Shown: positions 1-12,619, counted from the stretch's first letter. The stretch: 12,619 nt of DNA from a virus (IMGVR_UViG_2695420600_000009), one strand, 5' to 3'. Numbers and translations: made by a program. Notes: a model not told the origin generated them from the sequence alone.

Positions 1-86
1 ATGCCAAACTGCGATCGATTCAGATGCCATTTTGCAATCAGCGCCAGAACAGCAGCTGACAGGCCGTATTTGATTTTTGCGCTCAT
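1..86 (-). CDS. probable endolysin (lysozyme R), N-terminal 28 codons only; gene continues past the left edge of the window
   Basis: Minus-strand ATG at 86..84 followed by MSAKIKYGLSAAVLALIAKWHLNRSQFG, a Gly/Ala/Leu-rich signal-anchor-like N-terminus. It lies directly after holin and DUF826 genes, as in the Qin-type lysis cassette essQ-ydfR-rrrQ. Absent from the ORF track because fewer than 60 codons are visible. Confidence 0.4.
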   Translation of the reverse strand, partial: MSAKIKYGLSAAVLALIAKWHLNRSQFG

Positions 87-141
87 GGATATTTATCAGG
101 ATGCTACCAATGAAAGATACTGGAAAGCCAACTGCAAAAAG

Positions 142-456: not shown

Positions 457-460
457 TGAA

Positions 461-676
461 TTACTCTCCCCGTGCAGCCTTACGACGGTCCTCTCTGATT
501 TTGAAATACAGGTTAGTCAGATATGTCAGCAGCCCAAACAGCAGACTCCCCAGCACGCCTATTGCCGCCCACTGAGACGGGGAAACCCTGTCCAGCAACT
601 GCAGGAACCAGTAGCCCGTTCCCACCGCTGACGTGGTGTATGACACACCTGTTGTGATTTTTTCCATCTGGTACAT
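461..676 (-). CDS. S: phage 21-type class II holin (S21-like), 71 aa with dual-start motif MYQM
   Basis: ORF track 461..754 trimmed to the internal ATG at 676. [71 protein letters not shown] closely resembles the phage 21 S holin as I recall it, including the two closely spaced Met starts, two TM segments and a charged C-terminus. SD GGGAGACGGGG directly upstream. Confidence 0.85.
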
Positions 677-711
677 ACCCCGTCTCCCGTTATCCGGAAG
701 CTGACAACAAT

Positions 712-741
712 AAAAAAAGCCACCAGTTAAGTACTGATGGC
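712..741 (-). terminator. intrinsic terminator-like hairpin between nanS-p and the holin gene
   Basis: On the minus strand GCCATCAG-TACTTAA-CTGGTGGC (8-bp stem, one mismatch) is followed by TTTTTTTATTG. Confidence 0.5.
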
Positions 742-826
742 TCTGATAACTCATGCAGGCATCTCAGACGACCCACTGACACTACCGGTGAGTTTAACGA
801 TACCTTCCATTTGGCTGGCTCACTTT

Positions 827-2680
827 TTATGATGATGCCGGTGCATTTATCTCCAGCACCAGACTTTCTATCTCAACGCCATACGCTGCATTTTTGGTAA
901 TATCCGTCAGCGTCAGCGCATTCAGCCCCAGTGTCAGACTGTCTTTTATGACCTGGAATGCCGGGCCAGCCACTCCATTCAGTTTCGGAGTAACCGTGGC
1001 ACTGCCGGCGGTGAACACCAGCTCCAGCGTCAGCCAGTCGTTACTGTAATTCCCGAACTCGCCCAACTTTGTGTTTCCTGCTTTCTTGTGATGCATCAGA
1101 TTCAGTTTGCCGTCTGTGGTCTGGGTGAAGAACGACATCAGGAACGGGTTACCAGTCCCGGTCATCGCCACGACGTCAGGTAACGCTACATCGGTATACA
1201 GATAAATTCCCAGACCGAACTGGTTGTTGGTCAGTGCGCCTGACAGTCGAAACTTACAGCTCAGTCTGCCACCCCGTGTCAGCAGGGAGACTGCGTCATC
1301 CACCGGGCGCGTCAGGGACCAGGCTTTATTGCTCTGCTTGGTGATCTTAAATACACCATCTGACAACTGAACTCCGCCATTCTTAATGCTCCAGCCCTGC
1401 GCAGCAGCGTCTCCGGCTGTCGGCAACAGGGAGATTGTGCGTATGGATGCATCTTCAGACGGCCCCGATGGCGTGTCGCCGCCGGGCGAGGGTTTGATTT
1501 CCGGTGCCTTACCACTAATGAAGGCTAAGGTGCGACCGGCTACGTTCAGAATAGCAGTTGCCATACGATCGGGAATAATGCCACGACGCGCCCATGAGCT
1601 GAAATGCGTCGGGCGATTTGATGATACCCAGTTTTTGTTCGTTCGGGATGCCGAACCGTAATAACCAGACCCGGCAATATCAGGATCTTCTGACGGGTTG
1701 TTTGTCGGTGTATTAACTCCGCTACCATCGGTCATAAAGGGAACAAAATAAATCTGCTGGGATTCTTTACCTTTATATGCACCATATACCACTTCATATT
1801 GCGTACCGTGTTCTTGTTTCCACGCGTATGTCGTGTCGCCACAAATCCAGGGGACTGATGCCGGACTTCCACCGTGACACTGCGCCGCCAGCCCGGCAAG
1901 GTCAGCACGGAACTGCTGTACCATTGCAAGAAATGCTGCTGGCTGCTGGGCGTAACTGGCATTCGTCATATCGAATTCCCCCTGCATCCAGCATATCGCC
2001 AGCAAAACGTTTTTCGGGTTTTTCTGCAATGCTGCCTTCGTGCGGAAAAGCAGATCCTGATATAACGGCTTACCCACTCCCCAGCGAGCCGAATCCTGAC
2101 TGGCCCCCGTGGACTCGCTGAATGTCCCCTCCGTGCCCTGGGTGAATGCCGAACCACCACAACAGCATGGTACCAGCAGGATCCCCGCATTATTAGGGAT
2201 ATACGGAAGCAGTTTTTTGGCAATATGTAAGCCCTGTCCGACACAGCCGTACTGCCCTTTGCTCAGGTCAGCCCGGGGATGGTTAATCGTACTCATATCC
2301 TGAACATCATGCAGACAATGGTCAGCAGGAATGATGTCGTTAAATACGCATACTTCACCACCGGGAGTCACTGTGTTACGACGGGCCAGTTGCTTAATGC
2401 GCGGATGGGGCGCATCGTATGAATCCGGAAGCGGAAGACCTTCACCGTAAGCCATGGCATTGGATTGCCCGGCCAGTACGATGACGTAGTACCACTCCGG
2501 CTCAGTTGCACCACTGACGACCACATCACCTTCTGCTGCAATCGCCTGCATCAGGGTATAAGGGGTTATGGCCACCGGACTACCAAACGGCTGCCAGCCC
2601 TCCTTCAGTTTTTGTGTCAGTCGTTTCGCAAGGTCTGACGGCGATGCCGCCCTGACCACGTCATAGTGTTTAAATGCCAT
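827..2680 (-). CDS. nanS: prophage sialate (9-O-acetyl-N-acetylneuraminate) O-acetylesterase, NanS-p / YjhS-like, with N-terminal DUF1737-like region
   Basis: 617-aa ORF with SD GGGAGGA upstream of the ATG at 2680. The N-terminus MAFKHYDVVRAASPSDLAKRL and the GQSN motif (VLAGQSNAMAYGEG) fit the SGNH/DUF303 esterase family that EHEC lambdoid prophages carry downstream of the stx position. Recognised from memory of the family, not searched. Confidence 0.8.
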   Translation of the reverse strand: MAFKHYDVVRAASPSDLAKRLTQKLKEGWQPFGSPVAITPYTLMQAIAAEGDVVVSGATEPEWYYVIVLAGQSNAMAYGEGLPLPDSYDAPHPRIKQLARRNTVTPGGEVCVFNDIIPADHCLHDVQDMSTINHPRADLSKGQYGCVGQGLHIAKKLLPYIPNNAGILLVPCCCGGSAFTQGTEGTFSESTGASQDSARWGVGKPLYQDLLFRTKAALQKNPKNVLLAICWMQGEFDMTNASYAQQPAAFLAMVQQFRADLAGLAAQCHGGSPASVPWICGDTTYAWKQEHGTQYEVVYGAYKGKESQQIYFVPFMTDGSGVNTPTNNPSEDPDIAGSGYYGSASRTNKNWVSSNRPTHFSSWARRGIIPDRMATAILNVAGRTLAFISGKAPEIKPSPGGDTPSGPSEDASIRTISLLPTAGDAAAQGWSIKNGGVQLSDGVFKITKQSNKAWSLTRPVDDAVSLLTRGGRLSCKFRLSGALTNNQFGLGIYLYTDVALPDVVAMTGTGNPFLMSFFTQTTDGKLNLMHHKKAGNTKLGEFGNYSNDWLTLELVFTAGSATVTPKLNGVAGPAFQVIKDSLTLGLNALTLTDITKNAAYGVEIESLVLEINAPASS

Positions 2681-2873
2681 GAATCCTCCCGGCCGGGATA
2701 ATATTGTGAGTAAAATAAGGAGCGGGCTGAAGTCCGGAAGTTACAGGACAATGGCAGAAGAGAGACGACAGCCCGCAATTCGAAAAAGACCGCGCAGTTG
2801 CGCAGAGTGATTACTATGGGGTATTATTCGCCAGCTGAAATATTACTTCACGTTTTATTGTTTATTCCTTGCC

Positions 2874-2902
2874 GCCCGCGTCTCCCAGCGCGGGCTTTTT
2901 TT
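2874..2902 (+). terminator. plus-strand intrinsic terminator-like hairpin inside repeat A (second copy at 4700..4728)
   Basis: GCCCGCG-TCTCCCAG-CGCGGGC followed by TTTTTTT on the plus strand. Confidence 0.5.
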
Positions 2903-2910
2903 GCCCACAA

Positions 2911-2931
2911 GAAAACCCCTCCGGAGAGGGG
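2911..2931 (-). terminator. minus-strand terminator-like hairpin T1 in repeat A (copy at 4737..4757; diverged sub-repeat version at 3397..3418)
   Basis: Minus strand CCCCTC-TCCG-GAGGGG followed by TTTTCTTG. Confidence 0.45.
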
Positions 2932-3179
2932 CTAAAGCCGCGTATCTGTATCATCATGCACATGGTGCCGGGTGCCTCCCGGTGAGTTCAGCCCGGTGCC
3001 ACTAAACCCGCGTCATTCTCGTTTTGATAATCAGAGATTATACCGTCACCAGTCGCCCCTCCGCTCAGGGGGATTCACCATGCGAAATTTTTTTAACAAA
3101 TGCCCAGTCTGACAGGCAACTGTCAACTTACTGAATTGTGAGCAACATAGCATTTAACGGGGAACCTGTTTTCTGCAGT

Positions 3180-3206
3180 AAAAAGGCCCACCGGAGCGGA
3201 TGGGCC
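3180..3206 (-). terminator. minus-strand terminator-like hairpin T2 in repeat A (copy at 5006..5032)
   Basis: Minus strand GGCCCA-TCCGCTCCGG-TGGGCC followed by TTTTTACTG. Confidence 0.45.
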
Positions 3207-3811
3207 TGGAAGGATAGCGGTCATGTGATGCCGGTTTCCCGGTAACTCAGCACCGGTATCTGAGTCAACGTTTTCTCTACTGGGTCATTTCCGATACGCC
3301 CTGCCTGCTGACAGGCTTTCATCACATCTGAAAATATAGCACCCTGACTGATACTGTAGTACCTAAGGTTCCAGAAACTGTGATGTATCCGGCACAGAAA
3401 AGCCCCTCCGGAGAGGGCTGGAGAGTGGCGCTATGTGCCATTGCATGATGCCGGGTGCCTCCCGGTGAATTCAGTACCAGCACCTGAATCCGCGATTATC
3501 CCATATACCTACTCGCTGATTGCCCCTCCGCACAGGGGGATTCACCATGCCAGTTTCTTTTAACAAACTCCCCGCAAACCAGACAACAGTCAACCGCCTG
3601 AATTGTGAAGTATTTAAAAATTTCTCCCGCTAACTGATACCCGGCTAACAGTCTGGCGTTTTCTTTTTCAGCAACGGGAAAGCAACAACCACCACACCCG
3701 CCACCAGCACACCGTCAGCCAGCACTGACATTATCCGGCTGCTGCAATGCCATTCACAAAAACAGTAAGCAATCACTTTTTACCGTAACAGGTGATAATC
3801 CAGATATGTAT

Positions 3812-4138
3812 CTACCCCAGATGAGTAATCCGAAGTTCATCCATACCACAGGTCCTGGCTATTCTGTTGTACTCCTGAACAAGAGCAAATAATTCTGAAT
3901 TAGCAACCATGAACTCATCGCAAACCCTCTGTATAGCATCACTATTCAGAATAATAACGTCTCTTCCCGAAAGACGATCAGGAGTACAGAACAAAACTGT
4001 CAAACGGCTGAAGGCCTTTGCTCGTGCTGCATTGACTATATCAATACGCTGCCTAAGGATGAAACACCCCGACGCCTCATCAATATTCACTCTACCCACA
4101 CCATATGAATGATAAATATTTAATGCTGAAAAAACCAT
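3812..4138 (-). CDS. hypothetical protein in AT-rich cargo segment (108 aa from first ATG; ORF track extends to a TTG at 4165)
   Basis: A 354-nt open frame in clearly AT-rich DNA, where stop codons are frequent, argues for real coding. It is on the late-transcribed strand. No convincing SD and no family I can recognise. An antisense 67-aa ORF (3909..4112) overlaps it. Confidence 0.35.
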   Translation of the reverse strand: MVFSALNIYHSYGVGRVNIDEASGCFILRQRIDIVNAARAKAFSRLTVLFCTPDRLSGRDVIILNSDAIQRVCDEFMVANSELFALVQEYNRIARTCGMDELRITHLG

Positions 4139-4275
4139 TAGACCGTATAACAAACACTCAATCAATACTTAACAGAACTTTTATTTTTGACAAACATAAA
4201 ATATTTTCAACAATATCCTGAGCCAGGTATATTTCAGTATAAGGCTCTGCCGGAAGGAATCTGGAAGAATGAATA

Positions 4276-4352
4276 TGGCGCGCTGTACTGGATTCGAACC
4301 AGTGACCGATTGCTTAGAAGGCAATTGCTCTGTCCGGCTGAGCTAACAACGC
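4276..4352 (-). tRNA. tRNA-Arg (anticodon TCT), cluster 1
   Basis: Reverse complement GCGTTGTTAGCTCAGCCGGACAGAGCAATTGCCTTCTAAGCAATCGGTCACTGGTTCGAATCCAGTACAGCGCGCCA folds as a 77-nt cloverleaf with anticodon loop CTTCTAA, T-loop TTCGAAT and encoded CCA. One G-U pair in the acceptor stem, where cluster 2 has A-U. Confidence 0.85.
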
Positions 4353-4365
4353 TGAATACCGATAA

Positions 4366-4445
4366 TGGACCGCCATCGGGGACCCGCCCCCGCACCAACA
4401 ACCCTGTTATCATGTCGTCTGCTCTTCCTGATAAGCTAATGGCGG
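4366..4445 (-). pseudogene. degenerate tRNA-like sequence (disrupted counterpart of tRNA-Arg TCG at 5572..5648)
   Basis: Acceptor stem, D-arm, 3' T-stem half and CCA match the cluster-2 tRNA. The anticodon arm, variable loop and 5' T-stem are replaced by AGACGACATGATAACAGGGTTGTTGGTGCGGGGGCGGGT, which does not form a cloverleaf. Confidence 0.6.
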
Positions 4446-4452
4446 TTTGTGA

Positions 4453-4528
4453 TGGTGGCCCTTGCTGGATTTGAACCAGCGACCTGGCGATTATGAGTCG
4501 CTCGCTCTCACCACTGAGCTAAAGGGCC
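4453..4528 (-). tRNA. tRNA with anticodon CAT (Ile2/lysidine-type or Met; ileZ-like), cluster 1
   Basis: Reverse complement GGCCCTTTAGCTCAGTGGTGAGAGCGAGCGACTCATAATCGCCAGGTCGCTGGTTCAAATCCAGCAAGGGCCACCA; 76-nt cloverleaf with anticodon loop CTCATAA. Stx-type phages carry ileZ-argN-argO at this position. Confidence 0.85.
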
Positions 4529-4567
4529 GGGAGCAGAATAATAACGGTCCGTAATTAATTCCGCAAT

Positions 4568-4681
4568 AAAAAACCCGCTCGGCGGCGGGTTGTAGAAACT
4601 CTTCTAACGTCAGGCATAAAACGCCCATAGTTATGACGAATTTACCACAGATTCCGGAAAAATCAACCTAGTTACCTTTTT
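4568..4681 (-). repeat. repeat B copy 1: duplicated Q 3' tail plus terminator module (remnant; second copy 7299..7413 is attached to the intact Q gene)
   Basis: About 114 bp identical, bar one or two bases, to 7299..7413. It encodes the last ~17 codons of Q (KVTRLIFPESVVNSS stop) followed by the terminator hairpin at 4568..4591, with no upstream Q coding sequence. An N at 4682 marks the junction with repeat A copy 2. Confidence 0.8.
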
Positions 4682-4682
4682 N

Positions 4683-5450
4683 ATTGTTTATTCCTTGCCG
4701 CCCGCGTCTCCCAGCGCGGGCTTTTTTTGCCCACAAGAAAACCCCTCCGGAGAGGGGCTAAAGCCGCGTATCTGTATCATCATGCACATGGTGCCGGGTG
4801 CCTCCCGGTGAGTTCAGCCCGGTGCCACTAAACCCGCGTCATTCTCGTTTTGATAATCAGAGATTATACCGTCACCAGTCGCCCCTCCGCTCAGGGGGAT
4901 TCACCATGCGAAATTTTTTTAACAAATGCCCAGTCTGACAGGCAACTGTCAACTTACTGAATTGTGAGCAACATAGCATTTAACGGGGAACCTGTTTTCT
5001 GCAGTAAAAAGGCCCACCGGAGCGGATGGGCCTGGAAGGATAGCGGTCATGTGATGCCGGTTTCCCGGTAACTCAGCACCGGTATCTGAGTCAACGTTTT
5101 CTCTACTGGGTCATTTCCGATACGCCCTGCCTGCTGACAGGCTTTCATCACATCTGAAAATATAGCACCCTGACTGATACTGTAGTACCTAAGGTTCCAG
5201 AAACTGTGATGTATCCGGCACAGAAAAGCCCCTCCGGAGAGGGCTGGAGAGTGGCGCTATGTGCCATTGCATGATGCCGGGTGCCTCCCGGTGAATTCAG
5301 TACCAGCACCTGAATCCGCGATTATCCCATATACCTACTCGCTGATTGCCCCTCCGCACAGGGGGATTCACCATGCCAGTTTCTTTTAACAAACTCCCCG
5401 CAAAACAGACAACTGTCAACCGTCTGAATTGTGAGACATTTAAAAAAAAG
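4683..5450. repeat. repeat A copy 2 (see 2853..3620)
   Basis: Near-identical to copy 1 over ~770 bp. ORF-track entries 5297..5530 and 5346..5552 in this region run into the tRNA genes and are rejected. Confidence 0.9.
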
Positions 5451-5481
5451 GCCCGCAAAAGCGAGCCAGGGAAAATAAGTG

Positions 5482-5558
5482 TGGCGCGTTGTACTGGATT
5501 CGAACCAGTGACCGATTGCTTAGAAGGCAATTGCTCTGTCCGGCTGAGCTAACAACGC
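5482..5558 (-). tRNA. tRNA-Arg (anticodon TCT), cluster 2
   Basis: Same 77-nt sequence as 4276..4352 except an A-U instead of G-U pair in the acceptor stem. Confidence 0.9.
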
Positions 5559-5571
5559 ATGATGCAGATAA

Positions 5572-5648
5572 TGGACCGCCATCGGGGACTTGAACCCCGC
5601 GCAGCCAGCTTCGAAGGCTGGCGCTCTTTCCTGATGAGCTAATGGCGG
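5572..5648 (-). tRNA. tRNA-Arg (anticodon TCG by my reading of the loop CTTCGAA), cluster 2
   Basis: Reverse complement CCGCCATTAGCTCATCAGGAAAGAGCGCCAGCCTTCGAAGCTGGCTGCGCGGGGTTCAAGTCCCCGATGGCGGTCCA; 7-bp acceptor stem, D-stem GCTC/GAGC, anticodon stem CCAGC/GCTGG, T-loop TTCAAGT, CCA end. Confidence 0.75.
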
Positions 5649-5655
5649 TATGTGA

Positions 5656-5731
5656 TGGTGGCCCTTGCTGGATTTGAACCAGCGACCTGGCGATTATGAG
5701 TCGCTCGCTCTCACCACTGAGCTAAAGGGCC
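5656..5731 (-). tRNA. tRNA with anticodon CAT (Ile2/Met; ileZ-like), cluster 2
   Basis: Identical to 4453..4528. The ~35 bp upstream of it are also conserved between the two clusters. Confidence 0.9.
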
Positions 5732-5771
5732 GGGAGCCGCATAATAACGACGCGTAATTAATTCTTCAATA

Positions 5772-6830
5772 TCATCCGTTCTGGCTGACTAAATCCTGTA
5801 CTTCCCGAACCGTCTGCTCAAAACGTTCAGTCTCCAGCTCAACGCCAATTGCACGACGCCCGAGCGCCAGTGCCGCTTTCACTGTCGAACCCAACCCCAT
5901 GAAAAAATCTGCAATCAGGTCACCCGGACGACTGCTAGCGCTGATTATCTGCTGCAGCATTTCTGCCGGTTTTTCGCACGGATGTTTCCCGGGATAGAAC
6001 TGCACCGGTTTATGCGTCCACACATCGGTATACGGCACCTGCACCGTCACGCCAAAATACCGCCGCAGATGTTTATATTCACTCAGCAGCTCCGCATACT
6101 GCCGGTTCAGTGAGGTATACGTATCCACCAGCTGGTGGTGGAGCTTTTCCAGTTCACCACGCCGATGCTTCTCTTCTGCCACCCGGGCAAACAGCGCCTG
6201 TAATTTCAGATAATCGCTTTCATTCGGCAACTGCCACTGACCGGCACTGAACCAGTGCGACACCATGTTTTTCTTTCCTGTGGCATCTGCAATCTGTTTT
6301 GCCGTTATCCCCAGGGCAGCTCGCGCATCACGAAAGTAAGAAATCAGCGGGGCCATCACATGCTGTTTCAGTGCACTGCCCTTCGCCGCATACCCGGCAT
6401 CTTTCGGACGATACGGCCCCTGATAATGTTCCGCGAACAGAATGCGCTCTGTGGCGGGGAAATACGCCCGCAGGCTTTCCTTGTTGCATCCGTTCCAGCG
6501 TCCGGACGGCTTCGCCCAGATAATATGGTTCAGCACACTGAAGCGTTCACGCATCATGATTTCGATATCAGATGCCAGGCGATGACCACAGAACAGGTAA
6601 AGACTTCCGGCAGGTTTCAGCACCCGCCAGAACTGCGCCAGACACTGGTCCAGCCACTTCAGGTAATCATCGTCGCCCTTCCACTGGTTATCCCAGCCCT
6701 CAGGCTTCACTTTAAAGTACGGCGGGTCCGTGACTATCAGGTCAACAGAATTTTCGGGTAACGACCGGATAAATTCCAGGCAGTCGGCGTTGATTAACTC
6801 ACAACTGGATATTTTTACAGTATTAAGCAT
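5772..6830 (-). CDS. DNA methyltransferase, beta-class amino-MTase (N6-adenine or N4-cytosine), orphan (no adjacent endonuclease gene)
   Basis: 352-aa ORF with catalytic motif DPPY near the N-terminus (LIVTDPPYF) and a SAM-binding FxGxG-like motif near the C-terminus (DFFMGLGST). This motif order is typical of beta-class MTases. Sits between Q and the tRNA cluster. Confidence 0.85.
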   Translation of the reverse strand: MLNTVKISSCELINADCLEFIRSLPENSVDLIVTDPPYFKVKPEGWDNQWKGDDDYLKWLDQCLAQFWRVLKPAGSLYLFCGHRLASDIEIMMRERFSVLNHIIWAKPSGRWNGCNKESLRAYFPATERILFAEHYQGPYRPKDAGYAAKGSALKQHVMAPLISYFRDARAALGITAKQIADATGKKNMVSHWFSAGQWQLPNESDYLKLQALFARVAEEKHRRGELEKLHHQLVDTYTSLNRQYAELLSEYKHLRRYFGVTVQVPYTDVWTHKPVQFYPGKHPCEKPAEMLQQIISASSRPGDLIADFFMGLGSTVKAALALGRRAIGVELETERFEQTVREVQDLVSQNG

Positions 6831-6965
6831 GGATCATTAAGCCTGTCTCTGATAGGCTCATTCTGCTTTTGCGCAAAGCAGTGGGCCTGAGGTTTGCTTG
6901 TGAACCCAACGCATGAGCAGATGGCTGGTGGGTGCCCCTAACACCCACCAGCCGCCCATTTACCA

Positions 6966-6994
6966 CAAATAAAAAAGCCTTCACTGCGGAAGGC
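6966..6994 (-). terminator. intrinsic terminator-like hairpin at the 3' end of the small winged-helix gene
   Basis: Minus strand GCCTTC-CGCAGT-GAAGGC followed by TTTTTTATTTG; the stem overlaps the stop codon at 6981..6983. Confidence 0.55.
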
Positions 6995-7178
6995 GTCTGT
7001 AACAACCGAACTGATAGTCTGCCAGACCCGCCATAACCAGCTGGGTCAGTATTAACTGGCAGCGTTCGCGTGAAAGGTAAGTATTCTGCGCTATCTCCCC
7101 GACTGTCGCCGGTTCGGTAACGCTTAATTCATTAAACACCACTCTGGCGGTTTCTGTCATATCCTGCTGTTTTAGCAT
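6981..7178 (-). CDS. small winged-helix-like DNA-binding protein (65 aa), hypothetical
   Basis: Good SD (AAGGA) 7 nt upstream of the ATG at 7178. The segment TVGEIAQNTYLSRERCQLILTQLVMAGL has the helix-turn-helix plus recognition-helix pattern of wHTH regulators. Family assignment is inference. Confidence 0.55.
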   Translation of the reverse strand: MLKQQDMTETARVVFNELSVTEPATVGEIAQNTYLSRERCQLILTQLVMAGLADYQFGCYRRLPQ

Positions 7179-7298
7179 GTCTTTTCCTTTTCCGGTTAAC
7201 GTGACACACCAATAACTCTTGTCGAAAAAGCCAGCAAGCTGAAAGACAGGTATTCACCGCCACCAGCGCGTTTACTGTACTGACGCGATTTCAGTCAT

Positions 7299-7322
7299 AA
7301 AAAACCCGCTCGGCGGCGGGTT
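7299..7322 (-). terminator. intrinsic terminator immediately downstream of Q (candidate tR')
   Basis: Minus strand CCCGC-CGCCGA-GCGGG followed by TTTTTTAT, ~40 nt after the Q stop codon. Duplicated at 4568..4591. Confidence 0.6.
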
Positions 7323-7361
7323 GTAGAAACTCTTCTAACGTCAGGCATAAAACGCCCATCG

Positions 7362-8216
7362 TTATGACGAATTTACCACAGATTCCGGAAAAATCAACCT
7401 AGTTACCTTTTTTAACTGCCGCTCAGCCCATGCTTCTTCAATATCAAACCGGGTCACCAGCGCATCATAGAATTTCTTAACTGTTTTTTCCCATGACGCG
7501 CGTGTTATCTGGTTTGTCACCTCGCATATAGCATTAAATGCCTCCGTTGATGGTAGTCTTTCATAGCCACGACCACCACAACGCTGGCAGTCTCTGATAA
7601 CAGGCATACCACGTTTTACCGACTCTTCACGATGAATGGCGACACCACGCCCACGGCAATCCTTACAGGCGGTGGAAACCTCACCCTTTCCGCCACACTC
7701 CGGACAGGCAACTTTTACCACCTCCCTGACTTTTTTCCATTCTTCCCAGTAAGACGGATACACACCTTTCGTACACTTTGCCCATACCGGCGGCTTACCA
7801 TCCGGATACTGGATCTTGTTTGTAAAAACCTCGCTTTCAATAAATTTTTTTCCGTGACAGCAGGGGCACTGTTTTTTGCTCGCCGCGCTACGGGCATAAT
7901 CTTCAAACGCATACGAAGCCATAATACGCATCACTGCCGGTTTTATTTCTGCCGGGAGTTTTCTTAACGCCGCCACGCGATCACACCGACTGAGTGCATA
8001 TTCTGTCAGCAATTCTGTTGCCCGCTCTCTGTCATTCATACTAATGCCCATTTTCCCAAGGAACGCAGAAACCCCCATCTCAGCCCGATTCTGTGTCATG
8101 CCCTGCGCGGCCATCACATCAGTGATACTCAGCGCATCTTTCGACGTTGAGGCCGATGCATCAGTCAGGCCGGGGGATTTTGGGGAGTAGTATTTCGGTA
8201 AATCTTCCAGTTTCAT
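7362..8216 (-). CDS. Q: Q-family late-gene antiterminator with four CxxCxG(xG) zinc-finger-like motifs
   Basis: 284-aa ORF in the canonical position: downstream of rusA with ATGA start/stop overlap, upstream of terminator, tRNAs and lysis genes. The N-terminal region resembles Qin-type Q (quuQ-like) proteins as I recall them. Cys motifs CPCCHGKK, CPECGGKG, CKDCRGRG, CQRCGGRG. Confidence 0.7.
   Translation of the reverse strand: MKLEDLPKYYSPKSPGLTDASASTSKDALSITDVMAAQGMTQNRAEMGVSAFLGKMGISMNDRERATELLTEYALSRCDRVAALRKLPAEIKPAVMRIMASYAFEDYARSAASKKQCPCCHGKKFIESEVFTNKIQYPDGKPPVWAKCTKGVYPSYWEEWKKVREVVKVACPECGGKGEVSTACKDCRGRGVAIHREESVKRGMPVIRDCQRCGGRGYERLPSTEAFNAICEVTNQITRASWEKTVKKFYDALVTRFDIEEAWAERQLKKVTRLIFPESVVNSS
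7370..7397 (-). promoter_or_regulatory. candidate late promoter pR' overlapping the last codons of Q
   Basis: Minus strand TTGATT (-35), 16-bp spacer, TAAATT (-10), located just upstream of the terminator at 7299..7322. Hexamer match only; no experimental support. Same motifs in repeat B copy 1 at 4639..4666. Confidence 0.3.
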
Positions 8217-8593
8217 TTTTTGACCTGCTCTTCATGCATTATGGGGTAAATCTTCACCCCCAGACGTCCACCAGATACTGGCTGACCACGAACGATATTG
8301 ATTTCATCAAACTGCTCATCGTCCATTAGCAACCCCGCATGCGTCAGCGCATCCAGCGGCGCTTTCAGAATATTGTCCAGGTCACGGCGGCGCTTATCCG
8401 GTGGTTCTGCAATAATTTTTATTGCCAACCTTCCGGACAGGCTTAATTTCAGCCGCTGCTGGCGAACAATAAGCGCCACTGCCCGGCGATAACGCTCCCC
8501 GGCTTTTGATACAAAATATGTGCTGCCACGACGACGCCAGTAAGTGTTCACCGTCGGCGGGTAAGGTAAAACAAATTCTATGCGCTCGGTCAT
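8213..8593 (-). CDS. rusA: RusA-family Holliday junction resolvase
   Basis: 126-aa ORF with the family signature region PDKRRRDLDNILKAPLDALTHAGLLMDDEQ and N-terminal LPYPPTVNTYWR. Stop overlaps the Q start (ATGA); start abuts the stop of the upstream gene. Confidence 0.85.
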   Translation of the reverse strand: MTERIEFVLPYPPTVNTYWRRRGSTYFVSKAGERYRRAVALIVRQQRLKLSLSGRLAIKIIAEPPDKRRRDLDNILKAPLDALTHAGLLMDDEQFDEINIVRGQPVSGGRLGVKIYPIMHEEQVKK

Positions 8594-9652
8594 TTATGCT
8601 TTCCACTTCAGAACACCCGAATTTCTCGCGTGCATTAAAAAACGAATCAGCAACAACAGCTGACTGCCGTGTTTCTCTTCAAAATCTTTTACTCCGGCAT
8701 GTAGTTCGTTACGGCATTTACGGCATAACGGAATAACAAACAAATCATCAGCCTTTGTTCCCATCCCTCCCAGTCCATGACCAATGATGTGATGCGGATC
8801 ATCTGCCTGATTGCCACACGTCATGCATTTCTGCGTTTTTACCCAGCGCGTGTATACAGGCATCTCTTCCCGTTGTGATTTCTGGCGCTGGAGATACTGA
8901 GCCGGTGACTCCGGATCAACGGCAATGCTGACCACCGTCTTTTCCTGTGGTGGGTTCTGTTGCTGGTGGACGTGAGGCAGTAACGCAATATTTTTTGTGC
9001 GCTGCTTCAGTATGCTGGTGGCTGTCTGCTCTCCCGGTATGATGTCGCTTTCACTGTACACAGAGCGAATTTTTTCCGCACGCAACCCCAGCGAACGACG
9101 TAATACCGCTTCCGGTAGCGCGTCCGCCACCTGATTGCGGACCGCCCACCAGGATAATTCAGCCAGAGATAATTCACGCTCCTGCGTACCGCTTATTGCG
9201 TGACCGATGACGTCAATCATCCATGCTGACAGGTTTTGATGAGCAAGTTGCTCGAGTGATTCGGATGTCTGGTCACGCAGCTGGTTGTCGCAGTGCCAGC
9301 ACAACACCATTGCGCCGGTACCATAACGGTGAATGACGGTTTCGCTGTGATGATAATCGCCGTGTGGCCACTGGCAGGATTTAATATGGCGCAACAGCCA
9401 GTCAGACAATGCACCAGCACCACCAGCAGCACGAATCACCCGTGCGTTACTGAAAAACGGCAGCAATGTTTTGTCTTCCACCAGCGGCTGGCGAGCGGCA
9501 GGAACGACCCCGGACGGCAGATTACGCATGCTTTTTGGTTCCGGCTCCACCAGTATTCTGCCGTTATGGAATGCTGACATTGATTCACGGCCTGGCTTAA
9601 CGATAACCAGACCGAGTTCCGGTACCAGAACAGGTCGAAGTAATACCCGCAC
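8594..9652 (-). CDS. DUF968 / YdfU-like prophage protein with C-terminal HNH-like Cys/His cluster
   Basis: 352-aa ORF. GTG start at 9652 is preceded by GGAGG with 4-nt spacing; an alternative ATG lies at 9580. C-terminal CMTCGNQADDPHHIIGH...CRKCRNELH resembles an HNH/zinc-finger nuclease motif. DUF968 assignment is from gene position and size by analogy with Qin ydfU. Confidence 0.55.
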   Translation of the reverse strand: MRVLLRPVLVPELGLVIVKPGRESMSAFHNGRILVEPEPKSMRNLPSGVVPAARQPLVEDKTLLPFFSNARVIRAAGGAGALSDWLLRHIKSCQWPHGDYHHSETVIHRYGTGAMVLCWHCDNQLRDQTSESLEQLAHQNLSAWMIDVIGHAISGTQERELSLAELSWWAVRNQVADALPEAVLRRSLGLRAEKIRSVYSESDIIPGEQTATSILKQRTKNIALLPHVHQQQNPPQEKTVVSIAVDPESPAQYLQRQKSQREEMPVYTRWVKTQKCMTCGNQADDPHHIIGHGLGGMGTKADDLFVIPLCRKCRNELHAGVKDFEEKHGSQLLLLIRFLMHARNSGVLKWKA

Positions 9653-9653
9653 A

Positions 9654-9932
9654 TTACCTCCAGATCCGTTGCTGGAATGTGCGGGACGGACGCGTTGGCC
9701 GTTCGGAGTAAGGGAGCCTGACGGAGATTATCCAGTGACGGTAGTCGAGGCTAAGGGCTTTTTTAACCTCGCATCCGCGCCTGCGGTAACACTGAATGAG
9801 CCATTCGGCCTGTTCTTCAGTGCATGGGGGATGCTGGTACCAATCAGATTTAAATGCGTGAGAGCGCCGCCCGTGCCTGCTGGCAAAGACGGCTGAATTA
9901 TCAGAATTGTGTAGTCTGGAATTTTGCGCCAT
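9654..9932 (-). CDS. hypothetical prophage protein (92 aa)
   Basis: ATG at 9932 with SD GGAGAAAG. The same RBS-plus-start context is duplicated at 10628. No family recognised. Confidence 0.45.
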   Translation of the reverse strand: MAQNSRLHNSDNSAVFASRHGRRSHAFKSDWYQHPPCTEEQAEWLIQCYRRRGCEVKKALSLDYRHWIISVRLPYSERPTRPSRTFQQRIWR

Positions 9933-9998
9933 CGGCTTTCTCCGGTGGCACAGTGTTACTCAACAGGGGTTCAGCCCTGCGCTGAATTGTAGATGAAT

Positions 9999-10259
9999 TC
10001 ACTCATCTTCAAAAGCAGAAAAACCAGCCTTAATCCCAGCTTCTTTCAGAGACGGCAACGATGTGACAAATTCATTTGCACGCGAAATAAAACCATCCGT
10101 CACAAGCCCATCCACAAAATGAATTAACGCAGCTCCACTCTTCCTTTGTTGAGACTGTAAACATTTAATACGGCAGTGGCTGACAATAGCGCCATTCTCA
10201 ACGCGCACAGTATAGAGGCCATCTTCACTAAAAATTTCACGTAATTCTTCGATTTTCAT
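9999..10259 (-). CDS. hypothetical protein, paralog 1 of a tandemly duplicated gene (86 aa from ATG; track shows a TTG one codon upstream)
   Basis: MKIEELREIFSEDGLYTVRVENGAIVSHCRIKCLQSQQRKSGA is ~85% identical over the first ~75 residues to the ORF at 10667..10954. SD GGAAGGA. Family not recognised. Confidence 0.6.
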   Translation of the reverse strand: MKIEELREIFSEDGLYTVRVENGAIVSHCRIKCLQSQQRKSGAALIHFVDGLVTDGFISRANEFVTSLPSLKEAGIKAGFSAFEDE

Positions 10260-10343
10260 CAACAGAATCCTTCCAGATAAATAGCACTCCCCTGTTCGGG
10301 GTCCATCCCTCTTCTCCCTGCGCGCTACTTAAGTGAGTCGATT

Positions 10344-10374
10344 NNNNNNNNNNNNNNNNNNNNNNNNNNNNNNN
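10344..10374. other. assembly gap (31 N)
   Basis: Run of N in the sequence. It interrupts the gene starting at 10628 and the upstream region of paralog 1. Confidence 1.
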
Positions 10375-10628
10375 CACAGGTAATCAACGAAACCGGACAC
10401 CAGTTTTCGTTCGCGAGGCGTGATCGCCCCACCGACCGGAGTCCAGTAATCGAAACCCAGTTGCAGGAGTTTGAAAAAACGCTTGTGGAATGCGTAGTTA
10501 CACACACGCTTAAAGTCTGCGTGTATCCACTCACCTATTTTGATTTGATGCAGAAAATCGCAACTCTCCGGCGTCGCCGGGAGAAGTAATCCGGAAGAGG
10601 TTTGTTTGACCAGTTGTATATGTGCCAT
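10375..10628 (-). CDS. hypothetical prophage protein, 3' end lost in the gap
   Basis: ATG at 10628 in the same duplicated RBS context as 9932; MAHIQLVKQTSSGLLLPATPESCDFLHQIKIGEWIHADFKRVCNYAFHKRFFKLLQLGFDYWTPVGGAITPRERKLVSGFVDYL, then N. The track ORF 10329..10670 reads through the Ns. Confidence 0.45.
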
Positions 10629-10666
10629 CGGCTTTCTCCGGTGGCACGGTGTTACACAGCAGGAGT

Positions 10667-10954
10667 TCAATCCTGCTCAAGATTGTAGATGAGTTTATTC
10701 TTCAGCAAAAGCAGAAAACCAGCCTTAAAACCAATCTCTTTCAAAACCCGTAATGATGTGACAAATTCGTCCTCACGCAAAATAAAACCGTCCGTCAGAA
10801 GTCCATTACAAAAATAAAATAACACAGCACCGCTCTTCCTTTGTTGAGATTGCAAACATCTAATGCGGCAATGGCTGACAATCGCTCCATTCTCAACGCG
10901 CACAGCATAGAGGCCATTTTCACTAAAAATTTCACGCAATTCTTCGATTTTCAT
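10667..10954 (-). CDS. hypothetical protein, paralog 2 of the tandemly duplicated gene (95 aa)
   Basis: ATG at 10954 with SD GGAAGGA. Upstream on the minus strand is TTGATT-16 bp-TAGAAT, a plausible sigma-70 promoter. The C-terminus diverges from paralog 1 after KAGF. Confidence 0.6.
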   Translation of the reverse strand: MKIEELREIFSENGLYAVRVENGAIVSHCRIRCLQSQQRKSGAVLFYFCNGLLTDGFILREDEFVTSLRVLKEIGFKAGFLLLLKNKLIYNLEQD

Positions 10955-11077
10955 CTTCAGAATCCTTCCAGATAAATAGCTCTCCCCTGTTCGGGGTCCA
11001 TCCCTCTTCTCCCTGCGCGCTACTTAAGTGAGTCGATTCTATCTGCGAAGGTGCGCGAATCAAATTCACCGGAAATA

Positions 11078-11126
11078 AACAACAAAAAACCCGCCGAAAC
11101 GCTGAGAGATCACAGCGATGGGCGGG
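11078..11126 (-). terminator. terminator-like stem-loop after the truncated hok copy
   Basis: Minus strand CCCGCC ... GGCGGG stem enclosing an inner CGCTG/CAGCG stem, followed by TTTTTTGTTGTTTATTT. Confidence 0.45.
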
Positions 11127-11203
11127 TTAAGTGCGGGTGCGTTGAGGATGCCTGACACATCAGAGGTGGGCGGGGATGGGATCAGCTCCCCGCCCGGTCA
11201 CTC

Positions 11204-11303
11204 TTACTTCCTGGATTCGTAGTCTACGAAGACAGCGACCTCCGTCTGGCCGGTTCGGATTCGTACCTCACAGAGGTCTTTCCTCGTTACCAGTGCCGTC
11301 ACT
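11204..11303 (-). pseudogene. truncated hok copy (3' ~33 codons plus 3' UTR), tandem to the intact gene
   Basis: Minus strand reads ...TRKDLCEVRIRTGQTEVAVFVDYESRK stop, homologous to the C-terminal half of the hok ORF at 11421..11576. The copy begins at an N (11304) directly after the intact gene's terminator. The 3' UTR (11127..11203) is homologous to 11353..11420. Confidence 0.7.
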
Positions 11304-11319
11304 NAACTTCAAACGCGTT

Positions 11320-11351
11320 GAAAATAAAAACAAAAACCCGCCGAAGCGGGT
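11320..11351 (-). terminator. intrinsic terminator of the hok transcript
   Basis: Minus strand CCCGC-TTCGG-GCGGG followed by TTTTTGTTTTTATTTTC, ~70-100 nt downstream of the hok stop. Confidence 0.6.
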
Positions 11352-11420
11352 TAAGTGTGGGTGCATTGAGGATGCCTGACCCATCAGAGGTGGCGAGGGA
11401 TTTCTCCCCCGCCTGGTCTC

Positions 11421-11576
11421 TTACTCCTCAGGTTCGTAAGCTGTGAAGACAGCGACCTCCGTCTGGCCGGTTCGAATTCGTACCTCGCAGAGGTCTTTCC
11501 TCGTTACCAGTGCCGTCACTATGACGGTTAAACAGATGACGATCAGGGCGATTAACATCGCCTTTTGCTGCTTCAT
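11421..11576 (-). CDS. hokD: Hok/Gef-family type I toxin (51 aa), HokD/RelF-like
   Basis: MKQQKAMLIALIVICLTVIVTALVTRKDLCEVRIRTGQTEVAVFTAYEPEE matches the HokD (RelF) sequence as I recall it. SD GGAGAAGCAGG upstream. The track ORF (11421..11633) also contains an in-frame upstream ATG with its own SD (mok-like leader). No relBE genes precede it here. Confidence 0.9.
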   Translation of the reverse strand: MKQQKAMLIALIVICLTVIVTALVTRKDLCEVRIRTGQTEVAVFTAYEPEE

Positions 11577-11867
11577 AGCCTGCTTCTCCTTGCCTTTCGG
11601 CACGTAAGAGGCTAACCTAGATTTGCCGTTCATAGATTGAGCCTCAGATTAATGTTAAGCGTCTTGCCGGACGCGTAATGTTAACTGGGGCTTTTCTCTA
11701 TCTGCCTTTTGGTGTTCATGCCTGAGACAGATAGCCTCAAGCACCCGCTGCAATTCTACTTAACTCTCCTTTTCCCGCAAACCGTTTTTATCCCCAGCGG
11801 CAAATCGAATACACCACCAGCGCCACCGCCATCGCAATTCCTACCGTTGTTAATGCTTCAGGCCAGG

Positions 11868-12212
11868 TCATCGTAAAATATCCTCCACGCTTATCAGTCC
11901 GTTCCGCTCCAGATAACTCATCGCCTTATCCGGTAATTTGCAGTCTGGCTTCGCTTTTCTCAGTTGCCAGGTTAACTGCTTTACCAGCATGGTTAACTCA
12001 TCGACCAGACGCTGATATCCCACTGGTTTGTATTCATGCAATTTACCGGCTGGCTCTGCTGCCAGCGATACCAGTGCGATTTCCAGAACAGCAATATCCA
12101 TCTTATATGTGCGGATGATGTCATGGTCGATTGTGCCCGGTATGCACAGTCTCTGTGCTTCAATAGTCTCCTCTGCGTGAGCTATTAACTGCTCTCTGGT
12201 AAAAGTCGTCAT
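11868..12212 (-). CDS. hypothetical protein (114 aa)
   Basis: Start overlaps the stop of the upstream 55-aa gene (ATGA). Shares the motif IAL-x-SL-x-AEP with that gene. Family not recognised. Confidence 0.5.
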
Positions 12213-12376
12213 GCCGTAGCCCCTTCTTGATATTTTTCAAACCAGAACACAACCGGCTCTGCTTCCAGCGATGCCAGCGCAATCCGTGCCAGTTCCATTT
12301 GTTCACCACGGGTAAGCCCGTTTTCAAGCGGGTTTTTAATGAACAATTCAATACGTTCTTTGGTAATAGTGGTCAT
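12209..12376 (-). CDS. hypothetical small protein (55 aa), not in the ORF track (<60 aa)
   Basis: Strong SD AAGGAG 7 nt upstream of the ATG at 12376. Translation [55 protein letters not shown]. Stop overlaps the next start. Confidence 0.5.
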
Positions 12377-12386
12377 GTGTTACTCC

Positions 12387-12617
12387 TTAACCCGCAGTGC
12401 TTTCAACTGATGAGGGGAACAAAATCTTTTCATCAAACCCTGCATTCATATCATGAACAGCAACACACCAATCCATCGACGAACGATTATCAAGAGCCTC
12501 CATGATTTCATCCATGCGGCGTAGGTCATACAGGTAAATGCTTTTATCGCCAATGGTGTAAAAGCCAATTTTTTTCGGTGATGGATGAGGTGTACTGGCA
12601 ATAGCGGACACTACCAT
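12387..12617 (-). CDS. hypothetical protein (76 aa if the ATG at 12617 is the true start; may be partial)
   Basis: ORF begins 2 nt from the right edge of the window, so the real N-terminus cannot be judged. Its stop TAA is embedded in the SD of the next gene (TAAGGAG). Confidence 0.4.
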   Translation of the reverse strand: MVVSAIASTPHPSPKKIGFYTIGDKSIYLYDLRRMDEIMEALDNRSSMDWCVAVHDMNAGFDEKILFPSSVESTAG

Positions 12618-12619
12618 TT

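What the first reader, a model, noticed from the sequence alone, without database searches (positions are those of the whole stretch)
4682..11304. Ambiguous bases sit at or next to all three tandem-repeat junctions, so duplications may be assembly artefacts
Single N bases occur at 4682 (the junction of repeat B copy 1 with repeat A copy 2) and at 11304 (the junction of the intact hok unit with the truncated copy). A 31-N gap at 10344..10374 lies between the two paralog modules. Genomes with several similar lambdoid prophages are notorious for chimeric short-read assemblies. The biological interpretations above for duplicated tRNA clusters, Q-tail remnant, hok remnant and paralog modules depend on these joins being real.
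Basis: seen in the sequence. Interest (0 to 1): 0.4.

Follow-up and report, generated by a model that had tools for sequence, protein, structure and literature searches.

The report
Scaffolding artefact, not real prophage duplications
The apparent tandem duplications in this Shigella sonnei prophage region almost certainly come from assembly software stringing pieces of three separate, similar prophages into one scaffold, with an N marking every invented join, so they should not be read as biology.

Summary
In detail: the only ambiguous bases are single Ns at 4682 and 11304 and a 31-N run at 10344-10374. Each sits exactly at a break in homology.

The window is the whole 12,619-nt scaffold CXCN01000135.1 of draft assembly GCA_001251255.1 (S. 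sonnei lineage). In finished S. sonnei 53G, window 1-3578, 4683-10334 and 11305-12619 form one uninterrupted prophage, Pa. "Repeat A" occurs once there, and 10334 and 11305 lie 29 nt apart.

- Window 3579-4681 (DUF3927, two tRNAs, 51 nt of a Q gene) matches a different prophage remnant.
- Window 10375-11303 is 100% identical to a third prophage 1.3 Mb away in 53G, and is cut mid-DUF1367 and mid-hok.
- Every left-hand block end stops inside an exact inter-prophage repeat.
- Both "parents" agree on the base under each single N, so the Ns are placeholders.
- No join occurs in 5,426 finished E. coli genomes, ten finished S. sonnei loci, viral contigs or GTDB representatives.
- Sibling draft scaffolds chain the same pieces in conflicting orders, with Ns at every switch.

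This fits the greedy SSPACE plus GapFiller behaviour documented for the Sanger pipeline. Interest is low, except as a quality-control warning.

The parts
1..3448 (-). Block 1, backbone prophage Pa part. It holds DUF1327 (142-456), class II holin (461-676), the DUF1737/SASA/DUF6645 esterase (827-2680), and the left part of 'repeat A' with STnc100 sRNA copy 1 (2903-3112).
   Evidence: 100% identical to finished S. sonnei 53G Pa (L010) through 3578. Gene calls and Pfam come from L040.
3449..3578 (.). 130-nt stretch identical in Pa and Pb. Block 1 switches here from Pa-type to Pb-type sequence with no N. It lies inside STnc100 copy 2 (3390-3579).
   Evidence: The last Pa-specific marker is at 3448 and the first Pb-specific marker at 3579. 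The same architecture occurs naturally in E. coli 2D, so the switch may be a false closed join or a natural mosaic.
3579..4681 (-). Arm b, Pb-type: DUF3927 ORF (3645-3776), tRNA-Arg UCU (4276-4352), tRNA CAU annotated tRNA-Ile (4453-4528), and the last 51 nt of a Q antiterminator gene (4631-4681).
   Evidence: One mismatch to the Q-tRNA-DUF3927-IraM remnant of CP049175.1 at 0.28 Mb (L035). 99.1% to the second prophage of E. coli 042. The terminal 52 nt equal 7361-7412.
4682..4682 (.). Single N: placeholder at an unsupported join (Q 3' fragment | A copy 2).
   Evidence: Both parent sequences read T here. The join is absent from 5,426 finished E. coli genomes, viral contigs, GTDB genomes and the first 35 fetched loci.
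4683..5404 (.). A copy 2: a 722-nt exact re-use of 2857-3578, carrying the same two STnc100 copies (4729-4938 and 5216-5405).
   Evidence: Exact 722-nt repeat. Both copies map to the single locus L010 12152-11385 in 53G.
5405..7360 (-). Arm a, Pa-type: tRNA-Arg UCU (5482-5558), tRNA-Arg UCG (5572-5648), tRNA CAU/Ile (5656-5731), N6/N4 DNA methyltransferase (5772-6830) and a 65-aa ORF (6981-7178).
   Evidence: Zero differences to 53G Pa over 5126-5460, and 99.7% over the whole of block 2. tRNAs are.
7361..10334 (-). Rest of Pa: Q antiterminator (7362-8216, 284 aa), RusA (8213-8593), DUF968 (8594-9652), a 92-aa ORF (9654-9932) and Rem (9999-10259). It ends in a 48-nt exact Pa/P3 repeat (10287-10334).
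   Evidence: Q carries Pb-type alleles at 7396-7401, 7470 and 8229-8286.
10335..10343 (.). Last 9 nt of block 2 (GAGTCGATT). These are P3-type; finished Pa reads ATTTTTGATT here.
10344..10374 (.). 31-N scaffold gap.
   Evidence: In 53G only 29 nt separate window 10334 from 11305.
10375..11303 (-). Block 3, a fragment of a third prophage (P3): 5' 254 nt of DUF1367 (10375-10628), a Rem paralog (10667-10954) and the 3' 100 nt of hok (11204-11303), with no sok.
   Evidence: 929/929 identical to 53G at 0.78 Mb (L021 6580-5652) and to four other genomes. 99.8% to E. coli FDAARGOS_943. It ends 33 nt into a 115-nt exact hok/hok repeat. Rfam finds sok only at 11571-11746.
11304..11304 (.). Single N: placeholder at an unsupported join (truncated P3 hok | Pa).
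   Evidence: Both parents read A here. The join is absent from viral contigs and from the first 35 fetched loci. The best finished E. coli hits hold a single hok unit, seen as two overlapping pieces.
11305..12619 (-). Block 4, Pa continued: intact hok (11421-11576), sok RNA (11571-11746) and three small ORFs (11868-12212, 12209-12376, 12387-12617).
   Evidence: 100% identical to 53G L010 6459-5145.

Best explanation
The window is one scaffold of a short-read draft assembly of a Shigella sonnei-lineage isolate. That isolate carries several lambdoid prophages sharing near-identical stretches. The real backbone prophage (Pa) runs hok/sok, Rem, DUF968, RusA, Q, 65-aa ORF, methyltransferase, three tRNAs, A (two STnc100 sRNA genes), esterase and the lysis genes, each present once. 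Two short contigs from other prophages are bounded by exact repeats shared with Pa, and the scaffolder threaded them into Pa. One is the roughly 1.1-kb arm 3579-4681 from a Q-tRNA-DUF3927 prophage. The other is the 929-nt piece 10375-11303 from a hok-Rem-DUF1367 prophage. In graph terms, two alternative arms lie between shared repeats (the Q 3' end and A; the 48-nt repeat and the hok repeat). They were laid out in series instead of in parallel, so the shared flanks appear twice and mimic tandem duplication. A gap filler then extended each contig edge with genuine sequence from its own locus. That produced the exact 722-nt second copy of A and the 9 P3-type bases at 10335-10343. Because the extensions could never overlap, residual Ns were left (1, 31 and 1). 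Shown: the block map, the source scaffold, the repeat-bounded ends, the absence of the joins elsewhere, and the conflicting sibling scaffolds. Inferred: which programs made the joins (most likely Velvet, SSPACE and GapFiller in the Sanger pipeline), and whether the seamless switch at 3449-3578 is also false.
For: Source: the window equals the reverse complement of CXCN01000135.1, 12,619 nt. Backbone: window 1-3620, 4678-10334 and 11305-12619 map to L010 15004-11385, 12152-6489 and 6459-5145 of finished 53G at 99.8%, 99.7% and 100%, so A1 and A2 overlap on one locus and the block-3 site is a 29-nt stretch. All ten finished Pa loci hold the uninterrupted arrangement, and none of the 35 loci then held has any of the joins. 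Foreign pieces: 10375-11303 is 929/929 identical to 53G at 0.78 Mb, against Pa at 2.09-2.11 Mb; 3449-4681 has one mismatch to L035. Ends in repeats: 52, 57 and 33 nt exact at 4681, 10343 and 11303; the last two are the longest runs of their paralog alignments, and the Q and hok runs extend to 91 and 115 nt when compared with the finished Pb and P3 loci. Block 3 cuts DUF1367 and hok in mid-gene and has no sok. The Ns are placeholders, since both parents agree on the base. A2 is an exact 722-nt copy, whereas the truly paralogous segments are 86-88% identical. Junction 1 is absent from 5,426 finished E. coli genomes, and the joins are absent from viral and GTDB collections. Sibling draft scaffolds L038, L039, L041, L044, L045 and L047 have single Ns or short N runs at Pa/Pb/IS switches (L045 a single 71-N run between the arms). 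Arm order differs: a then b in the window, b then a in L039, L041 and L045. The N-free contig L046 is colinear with Pa. Pipeline: Page et al. 2016 (PMC5320598) state that SSPACE and GapFiller are greedy and 'can lead to false joins', that joins are written as Ns, and that 299 S. sonnei samples were processed (mean 405 contigs); S. sonnei sets CWZ.. and CXA.. are in their accession list. GapFiller extends edges by 30-mers and closes only with at least 10 nt of overlap and a matching size (PMC3446322).
Against: No reads were available, so coverage and read-pair support at the joins were not examined. The junction at 4682 has a 5-nt microhomology (TTTTA) between the two parents, which is also what a genuine illegitimate recombination junction can look like. 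The architecture esterase-A-DUF3927-two tRNAs-Q exists naturally in E. coli 2D and Eco_23-3511, and the A-to-X switch recurs in sibling scaffold L047, so block 1 may be a real prophage of this isolate rather than a chimera. That leaves open which of the two arms truly follows this Q gene. The assembly's membership in the Sanger pipeline batch is circumstantial: CXCN and CXAM were not in the truncated accession list. The left ends of blocks 2, 3 and 4 (4683, 10375, 11305) are not explained by repeats visible in the window. The 20-29 backbone bases missing at the block-3 site are unexplained in detail.
Confidence: 0.93

Rival explanations
1. The arrangement is real. Illegitimate recombination between co-resident lambdoid prophages created a recombinant with two late-region tRNA/sRNA modules in tandem and an inserted hok-Rem-DUF1367 fragment. 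The Ns are merely bases the short-read assembler could not call next to repeats.
For: TTTTA microhomology at junction 1. Lambdoid prophages are highly mosaic, and both arm types occur naturally in different genomes. A real tandem arrangement would also make short-read assemblers break at these repeats.
Against: Every novel adjacency is unsequenced (3 of 3), even though both parents agree on the base under each single N. Block 3 would need two independent illegitimate joins, a 9-nt P3-type patch and the loss of about 20 backbone bases. A2 is an exact 722-nt copy. The joins are absent from ten finished S. sonnei loci, 5,426 finished E. coli genomes and two large collections. Sibling scaffolds of this clonal species give contradictory orders. 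If reads crossed the join, GapFiller would have closed it once it found a 10-nt overlap.
Confidence: 0.04
2. A sub-variant of the artefact explanation, not exclusive of it. The join at 4682 is false, but block 1 is a genuine second prophage of this isolate (2D-type: Q-two tRNAs-DUF3927-A-esterase) whose esterase and A region are identical to Pa's. In that reading the truly 'inserted' piece is arm a (4683-7360), or both arms are real in different prophages and only their serial order is wrong.
For: The 2D-type architecture exists at 99.1% in E. coli 2D. The window's Q has a Pb-type C-terminus that would run seamlessly into arm b. In six of ten contigs carrying this exact Q, it is followed directly by arm b. 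L039 holds three distinct Q genes, so some strains have three such late regions.
Against: Finished S. sonnei genomes show arm b next to IraM, not next to A-esterase (L035). The N-free contig L046 has this same Q followed by arm a and then A-esterase. The exact 284-aa Q is found in no contig longer than 200 kb.
Confidence: 0.25
3. The single Ns are ordinary low-quality or homopolymer consensus calls inside correctly assembled sequence, unrelated to contig joins.
For: The N at 4682 lies in a run of T (CCTTTTTNATTG), a context prone to length uncertainty.
Against: The N at 11304 is not in a homopolymer (CACTNAACTTC). Both Ns coincide to the base with homology breakpoints against finished genomes. 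Sibling scaffolds show the same single-N convention at module switches.
Confidence: 0.02

Closest known systems
False scaffold joins and serialised repeat arms from greedy scaffolding and gap filling (SSPACE plus GapFiller after Velvet; Page et al. 2016, PMC5320598; Boetzer & Pirovano 2012, PMC3446322)
   Same: Joins are written as Ns. Edges are extended base by base with real reads. Closure happens only when the two extensions overlap. The authors themselves warn of false joins. S. sonnei is the most fragmented species in their table (mean 405 contigs). Sibling accession prefixes are in their list.
   Different: Membership of this particular assembly in that pipeline is not proven. The papers do not describe the single-N residue explicitly; that a gap shrinks to one N when filled without merging is my own recollection of these tools.
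Backbone prophage of S. sonnei 53G (HE616528.1, 2.09-2.11 Mb) and its relative in E. coli 042 (NC_017626.1, 1.41 Mb)
   Same: Same gene order and 99.7-100% (53G) or 96-99% (042) identity for blocks 1 (to 3578), 2 and 4.
   Different: Each module is present once. There is no Q-tail remnant, no second tRNA cluster, and no DUF1367/hok fragment. 53G has an 8-nt tandem duplication in Q, giving 273 aa instead of 284.
Natural mosaic prophage of E. coli strain 2D (NZ_CP059003.1, 2.62-2.63 Mb)
   Same: Esterase-A-DUF3927-tRNA-Arg-tRNA-Ile-Q, colinear with window 205-4677 at 99.1%.
   Different: In 2D the Q gene is complete and continues into RusA-DUF968-hok. There is no second A copy and no methyltransferase arm.
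Late regulatory region of Stx-converting lambdoid phages (Q, ileZ-argN-argO tRNAs, stx, nanS-p esterase, lysis genes); comparison from my own knowledge
   Same: Same module order: Q antiterminator, tRNA cluster, esterase of the DUF1737/SASA type, holin and lysis genes.
   Different: No stx genes. The corresponding interval (A) holds two STnc100 sRNA genes.

Membership tests
Scaffolding / gap-filling artefact (false join of paralogous prophage contigs) | The sequence is a scaffold of a draft short-read assembly, not finished sequence | tested here: met
   The window is the reverse complement of the whole contig CXCN01000135.1 (12,619 nt) of GCA_001251255.1.
Scaffolding / gap-filling artefact (false join of paralogous prophage contigs) | Every novel adjacency coincides with N placeholders and has no sequenced bridge | tested here: met
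   The Ns at 4682, 10344-10374 and 11304 coincide with homology breaks, and the parents agree on the base under each single N.
Scaffolding / gap-filling artefact (false join of paralogous prophage contigs) | The pieces map to different loci in finished genomes of the same lineage, and the backbone is continuous without them | tested here: met
   In 53G, Pa lies at 2.09-2.11 Mb and P3 at 0.78 Mb; Pb lies at 0.28 Mb in CP049175.1. Ten of ten finished Pa loci are uninterrupted.
Scaffolding / gap-filling artefact (false join of paralogous prophage contigs) | Contig ends lie in exact repeats shared between the loci | tested here: met
   52, 57 and 33 nt exact at the three left-hand ends. The shared repeats measure 91, 48 and 115 nt against the finished Pb, Pa and P3 loci. 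The right-hand starts at 10375 and 11305 are not explained.
Scaffolding / gap-filling artefact (false join of paralogous prophage contigs) | Independent assemblies do not reproduce the joins, and assemblies from similar pipelines give conflicting orders | tested here: met
   Searches find no join. Searches show differing arm orders, and L046 (N-free) is colinear with Pa.
Scaffolding / gap-filling artefact (false join of paralogous prophage contigs) | Read-level signature: no spanning reads or pairs, and abnormal depth on the duplicated segment | not testable with these tools
   No read data are accessible.
Genuine tandem duplication by unequal or illegitimate recombination | The novel junction is sequenced through | tested here: not met
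   All three junctions are Ns.
Genuine tandem duplication by unequal or illegitimate recombination | The junction is reproducible in related genomes | tested here: not met
   0 of 5,426 finished E. coli genomes, 0 of 10 finished S. sonnei loci, and 0 in viral and GTDB collections.
Genuine tandem duplication by unequal or illegitimate recombination | A single event explains the structure | tested here: inconclusive
   Junction 1 could be one microhomology-mediated event. Block 3 needs at least two joins plus a 9-nt patch and loss of backbone bases.
Lambdoid prophage late / nin region (what the underlying DNA is) | Q-type antiterminator, RusA, DUF968, hok/sok, a tRNA cluster, esterase and a holin-lysis cassette in the canonical order | tested here: met
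   Pfam families on the called genes, tRNAs, sok and STnc100, and RefSeq annotation of relatives.

The most novel reading that the evidence does not exclude
The join at 4682 is a real microhomology (TTTTA)-mediated recombination between two resident lambdoid prophages. That would give this isolate a prophage with two different tRNA and STnc100 late-region modules in tandem downstream of one Q antiterminator, and the N is just an uncalled base.
Probability: 0.03. Interest if true: 0.3.

Novelty: not a real feature. Interest (0 to 1): 0.08.

Why it matters
The value here is quality control. The other first-stage readings of this window depend on joins that have no sequence support and contradict finished genomes: duplicated tRNA clusters, a Q-tail remnant, a truncated hok copy, and paralog modules side by side. 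They should be withdrawn, or re-phrased as "three separate prophages of the same genome".

The case also shows a wider hazard. Public drafts from scaffold-and-gap-fill pipelines can lay paralogous prophage arms in series. At least one possible false join, the Pa-to-Pb switch in the 130-nt repeat at 3449-3578, carries no N at all, so N-based filtering alone would miss it.

Tried and rejected
1. Exact-pattern scans for joins 1 and 3 in viral contigs, and for join 1 (0-2 bases allowed at the N) in GTDB genomes, found nothing. This helped as absence evidence but did not find the source.

2. I tried to infer a fixed de Bruijn k from the terminal exact runs. The values 52, 57 and 33 are not constant, so there is no single k signature. 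Base-by-base gap filling fits better.

3. I considered the Ns as allele ambiguity between paralogs. This is rejected because both parents carry the same base.

4. I considered homopolymer uncertainty. It is possible at 4682 but not at 11304.

5. I first concluded that block 1 must be a chimeric contig. I softened this after finding the same architecture as a natural prophage in E. coli 2D and Eco_23-3511, and the same switch in sibling scaffold L047.

6. I first read the Pb-type alleles in the window's Q as assembly cross-talk. This is not settled. The same 284-aa Q occurs in an N-free contig from another project (L046) and in E. coli contigs followed by arm b, yet in no contig longer than 200 kb.

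7. A literature search for CP049175, CP049185, ERP001362 and CXCN01 found nothing. CXCN was not in the truncated accession list of the pipeline paper. The tools did not show an organism name for CP049175.1.

8. The piece-joining in the E. coli search tables makes 'covered' percentages misleading for repeats. I re-checked colinearity by local BLAST on the fetched loci.

Full report
**Observation.** The window contains exactly three ambiguous features: N at 4682, 31 Ns at 10344-10374 and N at 11304.
- A1 2853-3620 and A2 4678-5446, 99.1% identical
- tRNA clusters 4263-4568 and 5470-5771, 87.7%
- Q tail 4566-4681 and 7297-7412, 99.1%
- modules 9925-10343 and 10621-11038, 86.2%
- hok units 11122-11303 and 11346-11520, 86.4%

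All genes run on the minus strand. The DNA is the nin/late region of lambdoid prophages: hok/sok, Rem, DUF968, RusA, Q antiterminator, N6/N4 methyltransferase, a tRNA cluster, two STnc100 sRNA genes, a DUF1737/SASA esterase, holin and DUF1327.

**Source.** A look-up of the window's exact 284-aa Q protein returned contig CXCN01000135.1 of GCA_001251255.1. Its length is 12,619 nt and it is the exact reverse complement of the window. So the window is one complete scaffold of a draft assembly. The exact methyltransferase occurs in thousands of assemblies, including finished Shigella sonnei chromosomes such as 53G (HE616528.1, cited as an S. sonnei reference in the papers found).

**Backbone.** Against finished 53G (L010), window 1-3620 matches 15004-11385 with six mismatches, all between 3579 and 3611. 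Window 4678-10334 matches 12152-6489 at 99.7%. Window 11305-12619 matches 6459-5145 at 100%. So A1 and A2 both map to one locus. The two sides of block 3 are separated in 53G by 29 nt, ATTTTTGATTCTATTCCGGCACCATCTAA. All ten finished Pa loci carry the uninterrupted arrangement. E. coli 042 and C7 show the same continuity.

**Foreign pieces.** Window 10375-11303 is 929/929 identical to a different 53G locus at 0.78 Mb (QueH-hok-Rem-DUF1367-YbcO-DUF1133) and to four other genomes. It starts 254 nt into DUF1367, ends 100 nt from the 3' end of hok, and has no sok. Window 3449-4681 has one mismatch to a Q-tRNA-DUF3927-IraM remnant at 0.28 Mb of CP049175.1. It is 99.1% identical to the second prophage of E. 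coli 042. Block 1 switches from Pa-type to this Pb-type inside a 130-nt stretch (3449-3578) where the two are identical. That stretch lies within an STnc100 gene.

**Anatomy of the breaks.**
- Each left-hand block end stops inside an exact repeat of another place: 4630-4681 equals 7361-7412 (52 nt), 10287-10343 equals 10982-11038 (57 nt), and 11271-11303 equals 11488-11520 (33 nt).
- The last two are the longest exact runs in paralog alignments that are otherwise about 86% identical.
- Compared with the finished loci, the shared repeats measure 91 nt (window Q against finished Pb Q'), 48 nt (finished Pa against P3) and 115 nt (window hok against finished P3 hok). The last 9 nt of block 2 follow the P3 sequence, not Pa.
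- A2 is an exact 722-nt copy of 2857-3578, unlike the truly paralogous segments.
- Under each single N, both parent sequences agree: T at 4682 and A at 11304. So the Ns are placeholders rather than ambiguity codes.

**Absence elsewhere.**
- Junction 1 is spanned in 0 of 5,426 finished E. coli genomes.
- Joins 1 and 3 are absent from 2.9 million viral contigs. Join 1 is absent from the GTDB representative genomes.
- None of the three joins occurs in the first 35 loci fetched.
- For join 3, the best finished-genome hits map both halves of the query onto one overlapping hok unit.

**Sibling scaffolds.** Other draft scaffolds carrying the same Q (FTSI, FTTI, FTZO, FTVT, FTZP and CXAM sets) have single Ns or short N runs at switches between Pa, Pb and IS pieces (L045 has a single 71-N run between the arms). 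L039 even carries RusA-Q twice. The order of the two arms differs between scaffolds, where arm a is 65aa-methyltransferase-three tRNAs and arm b is two tRNAs-DUF3927:
- a then b in the window
- b then a in L039, L041 and L045
- only a in the N-free contig L046, which is fully colinear with finished Pa

Contradictory orders in a clonal species point to software, not biology.

**Mechanism.** The scaffold walks twice through a 'bubble' bounded by shared repeats and lays the two alternative arms in series, so the shared flanks (Q tail and A) appear twice. The same thing happens at the hok/Rem site. The Sanger pipeline paper says SSPACE and GapFiller are greedy and can make false joins. It also says joins are written as Ns and then targeted by 120 GapFiller iterations, and that 299 S. 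sonnei samples were processed. S. sonnei sets with neighbouring accession prefixes (CWZ.., CXA..) are in its list. GapFiller extends each edge base by base through 30-mer overlap. It closes a gap only if the extensions overlap by at least 10 nt and the size fits. At a false join it would add genuine sequence from each locus and never merge. That accounts for the exact second copy of A, the 9 P3-type bases and the residual Ns. That this particular assembly came from that pipeline, and that a filled but unmerged gap is reduced to one N, are inferences.

**Caveats.**
- No reads could be examined.
- The TTTTA microhomology at 4682 is compatible with a real illegitimate junction.
- The architecture of block 1 exists naturally in E. 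coli 2D and Eco_23-3511, and its A-to-X switch recurs in L047. So block 1 may be a genuine second prophage, and it remains open which arm truly follows this Q.
- The window's Q differs from all ten finished Pa loci only by Pb-type alleles: an 8-nt indel at 7396-7401, 7470, and 8229-8286. This 284-aa form is found only in contigs under 200 kb, yet also in an N-free contig (L046). Whether it is a sublineage allele, a gene conversion or assembly cross-talk is unresolved.
- None of this rescues the tandem arrangement itself.

**Verdict.** The duplicated tRNA clusters, Q-tail remnant, hok remnant and adjacent paralog modules are sequences from three separate prophages placed side by side by scaffolding. 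Confidence in the artefact is about 0.93. There is no novelty, and interest is low apart from the quality-control lesson.

Noticed in passing
window 2903-3112 and 3390-3579 (repeated at 4729-4938 and 5216-5405): 'Repeat A', which has no annotated function, holds two full-length matches to the Rfam sRNA family STnc100 (161 and 122 bits). They sit between the tRNA cluster and the esterase gene, the interval where stx genes sit in Stx phages (the stx placement is my own knowledge). The 130-nt Pa/Pb identity zone lies inside the second copy, and the 88-nt internal repeat family D3 falls within these copies.
   Followed up: partly
window 7362-8216 (Q gene), especially 7396-7401, 7470 and 8229-8286: The window's Q antiterminator is 284 aa. 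All ten finished S. sonnei Pa loci instead carry an 8-nt tandem duplication (GTTACCTT x2) that shortens Q to 273 aa. Every difference from finished Pa is the allele of the paralogous Q' of prophage Pb. The exact 284-aa protein occurs in 385 index blocks but in no contig over 200 kb.
   Followed up: partly
window 3211-3215: Three of the five finished S. sonnei Pa loci printed (L006, L013 and others) carry an IS3-family element (385-aa transposase) inserted here, with a 5-bp overlap of the flanks. The window and 53G lack it. That suggests the isolate belongs to a sublineage without this insertion.
   Followed up: no
window 4453-4528 and 5656-5731: ARAGORN calls these tRNA-Met (CAT), but RefSeq annotates the orthologues as tRNA-Ile. 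That is the lysidine-modified CAU type typical of the phage ileZ-argN-argO cluster (own knowledge).
   Followed up: no
window 10375 and 11305: The right-hand starts of blocks 3 and 4 are not at any repeat visible in the window. Several S. sonnei genomes (L019, L020, L023) have an IS inserted in DUF1367 96 nt beyond the block-3 start, so that IS does not explain the break either.
   Followed up: partly
L039 (FTTI01000148.1), L044 (FTVT01000195.1), L041 and L047: Other public S. sonnei draft scaffolds contain the same kind of serialised prophage pieces. These include two RusA-Q copies in a row and DUF3927 or IraM modules used twice, each switch marked by 1-18 Ns. The problem appears systematic for this region in these accession batches.
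   Followed up: partly
window 9999-10259 and 10667-10954: The two 'paralog modules' encode members of the Pfam Rem family (PF27490), 86 aa and 95 aa. They belong to different prophages: Pa, and the DUF1367-type prophage at 0.78 Mb in 53G.
   Followed up: partly
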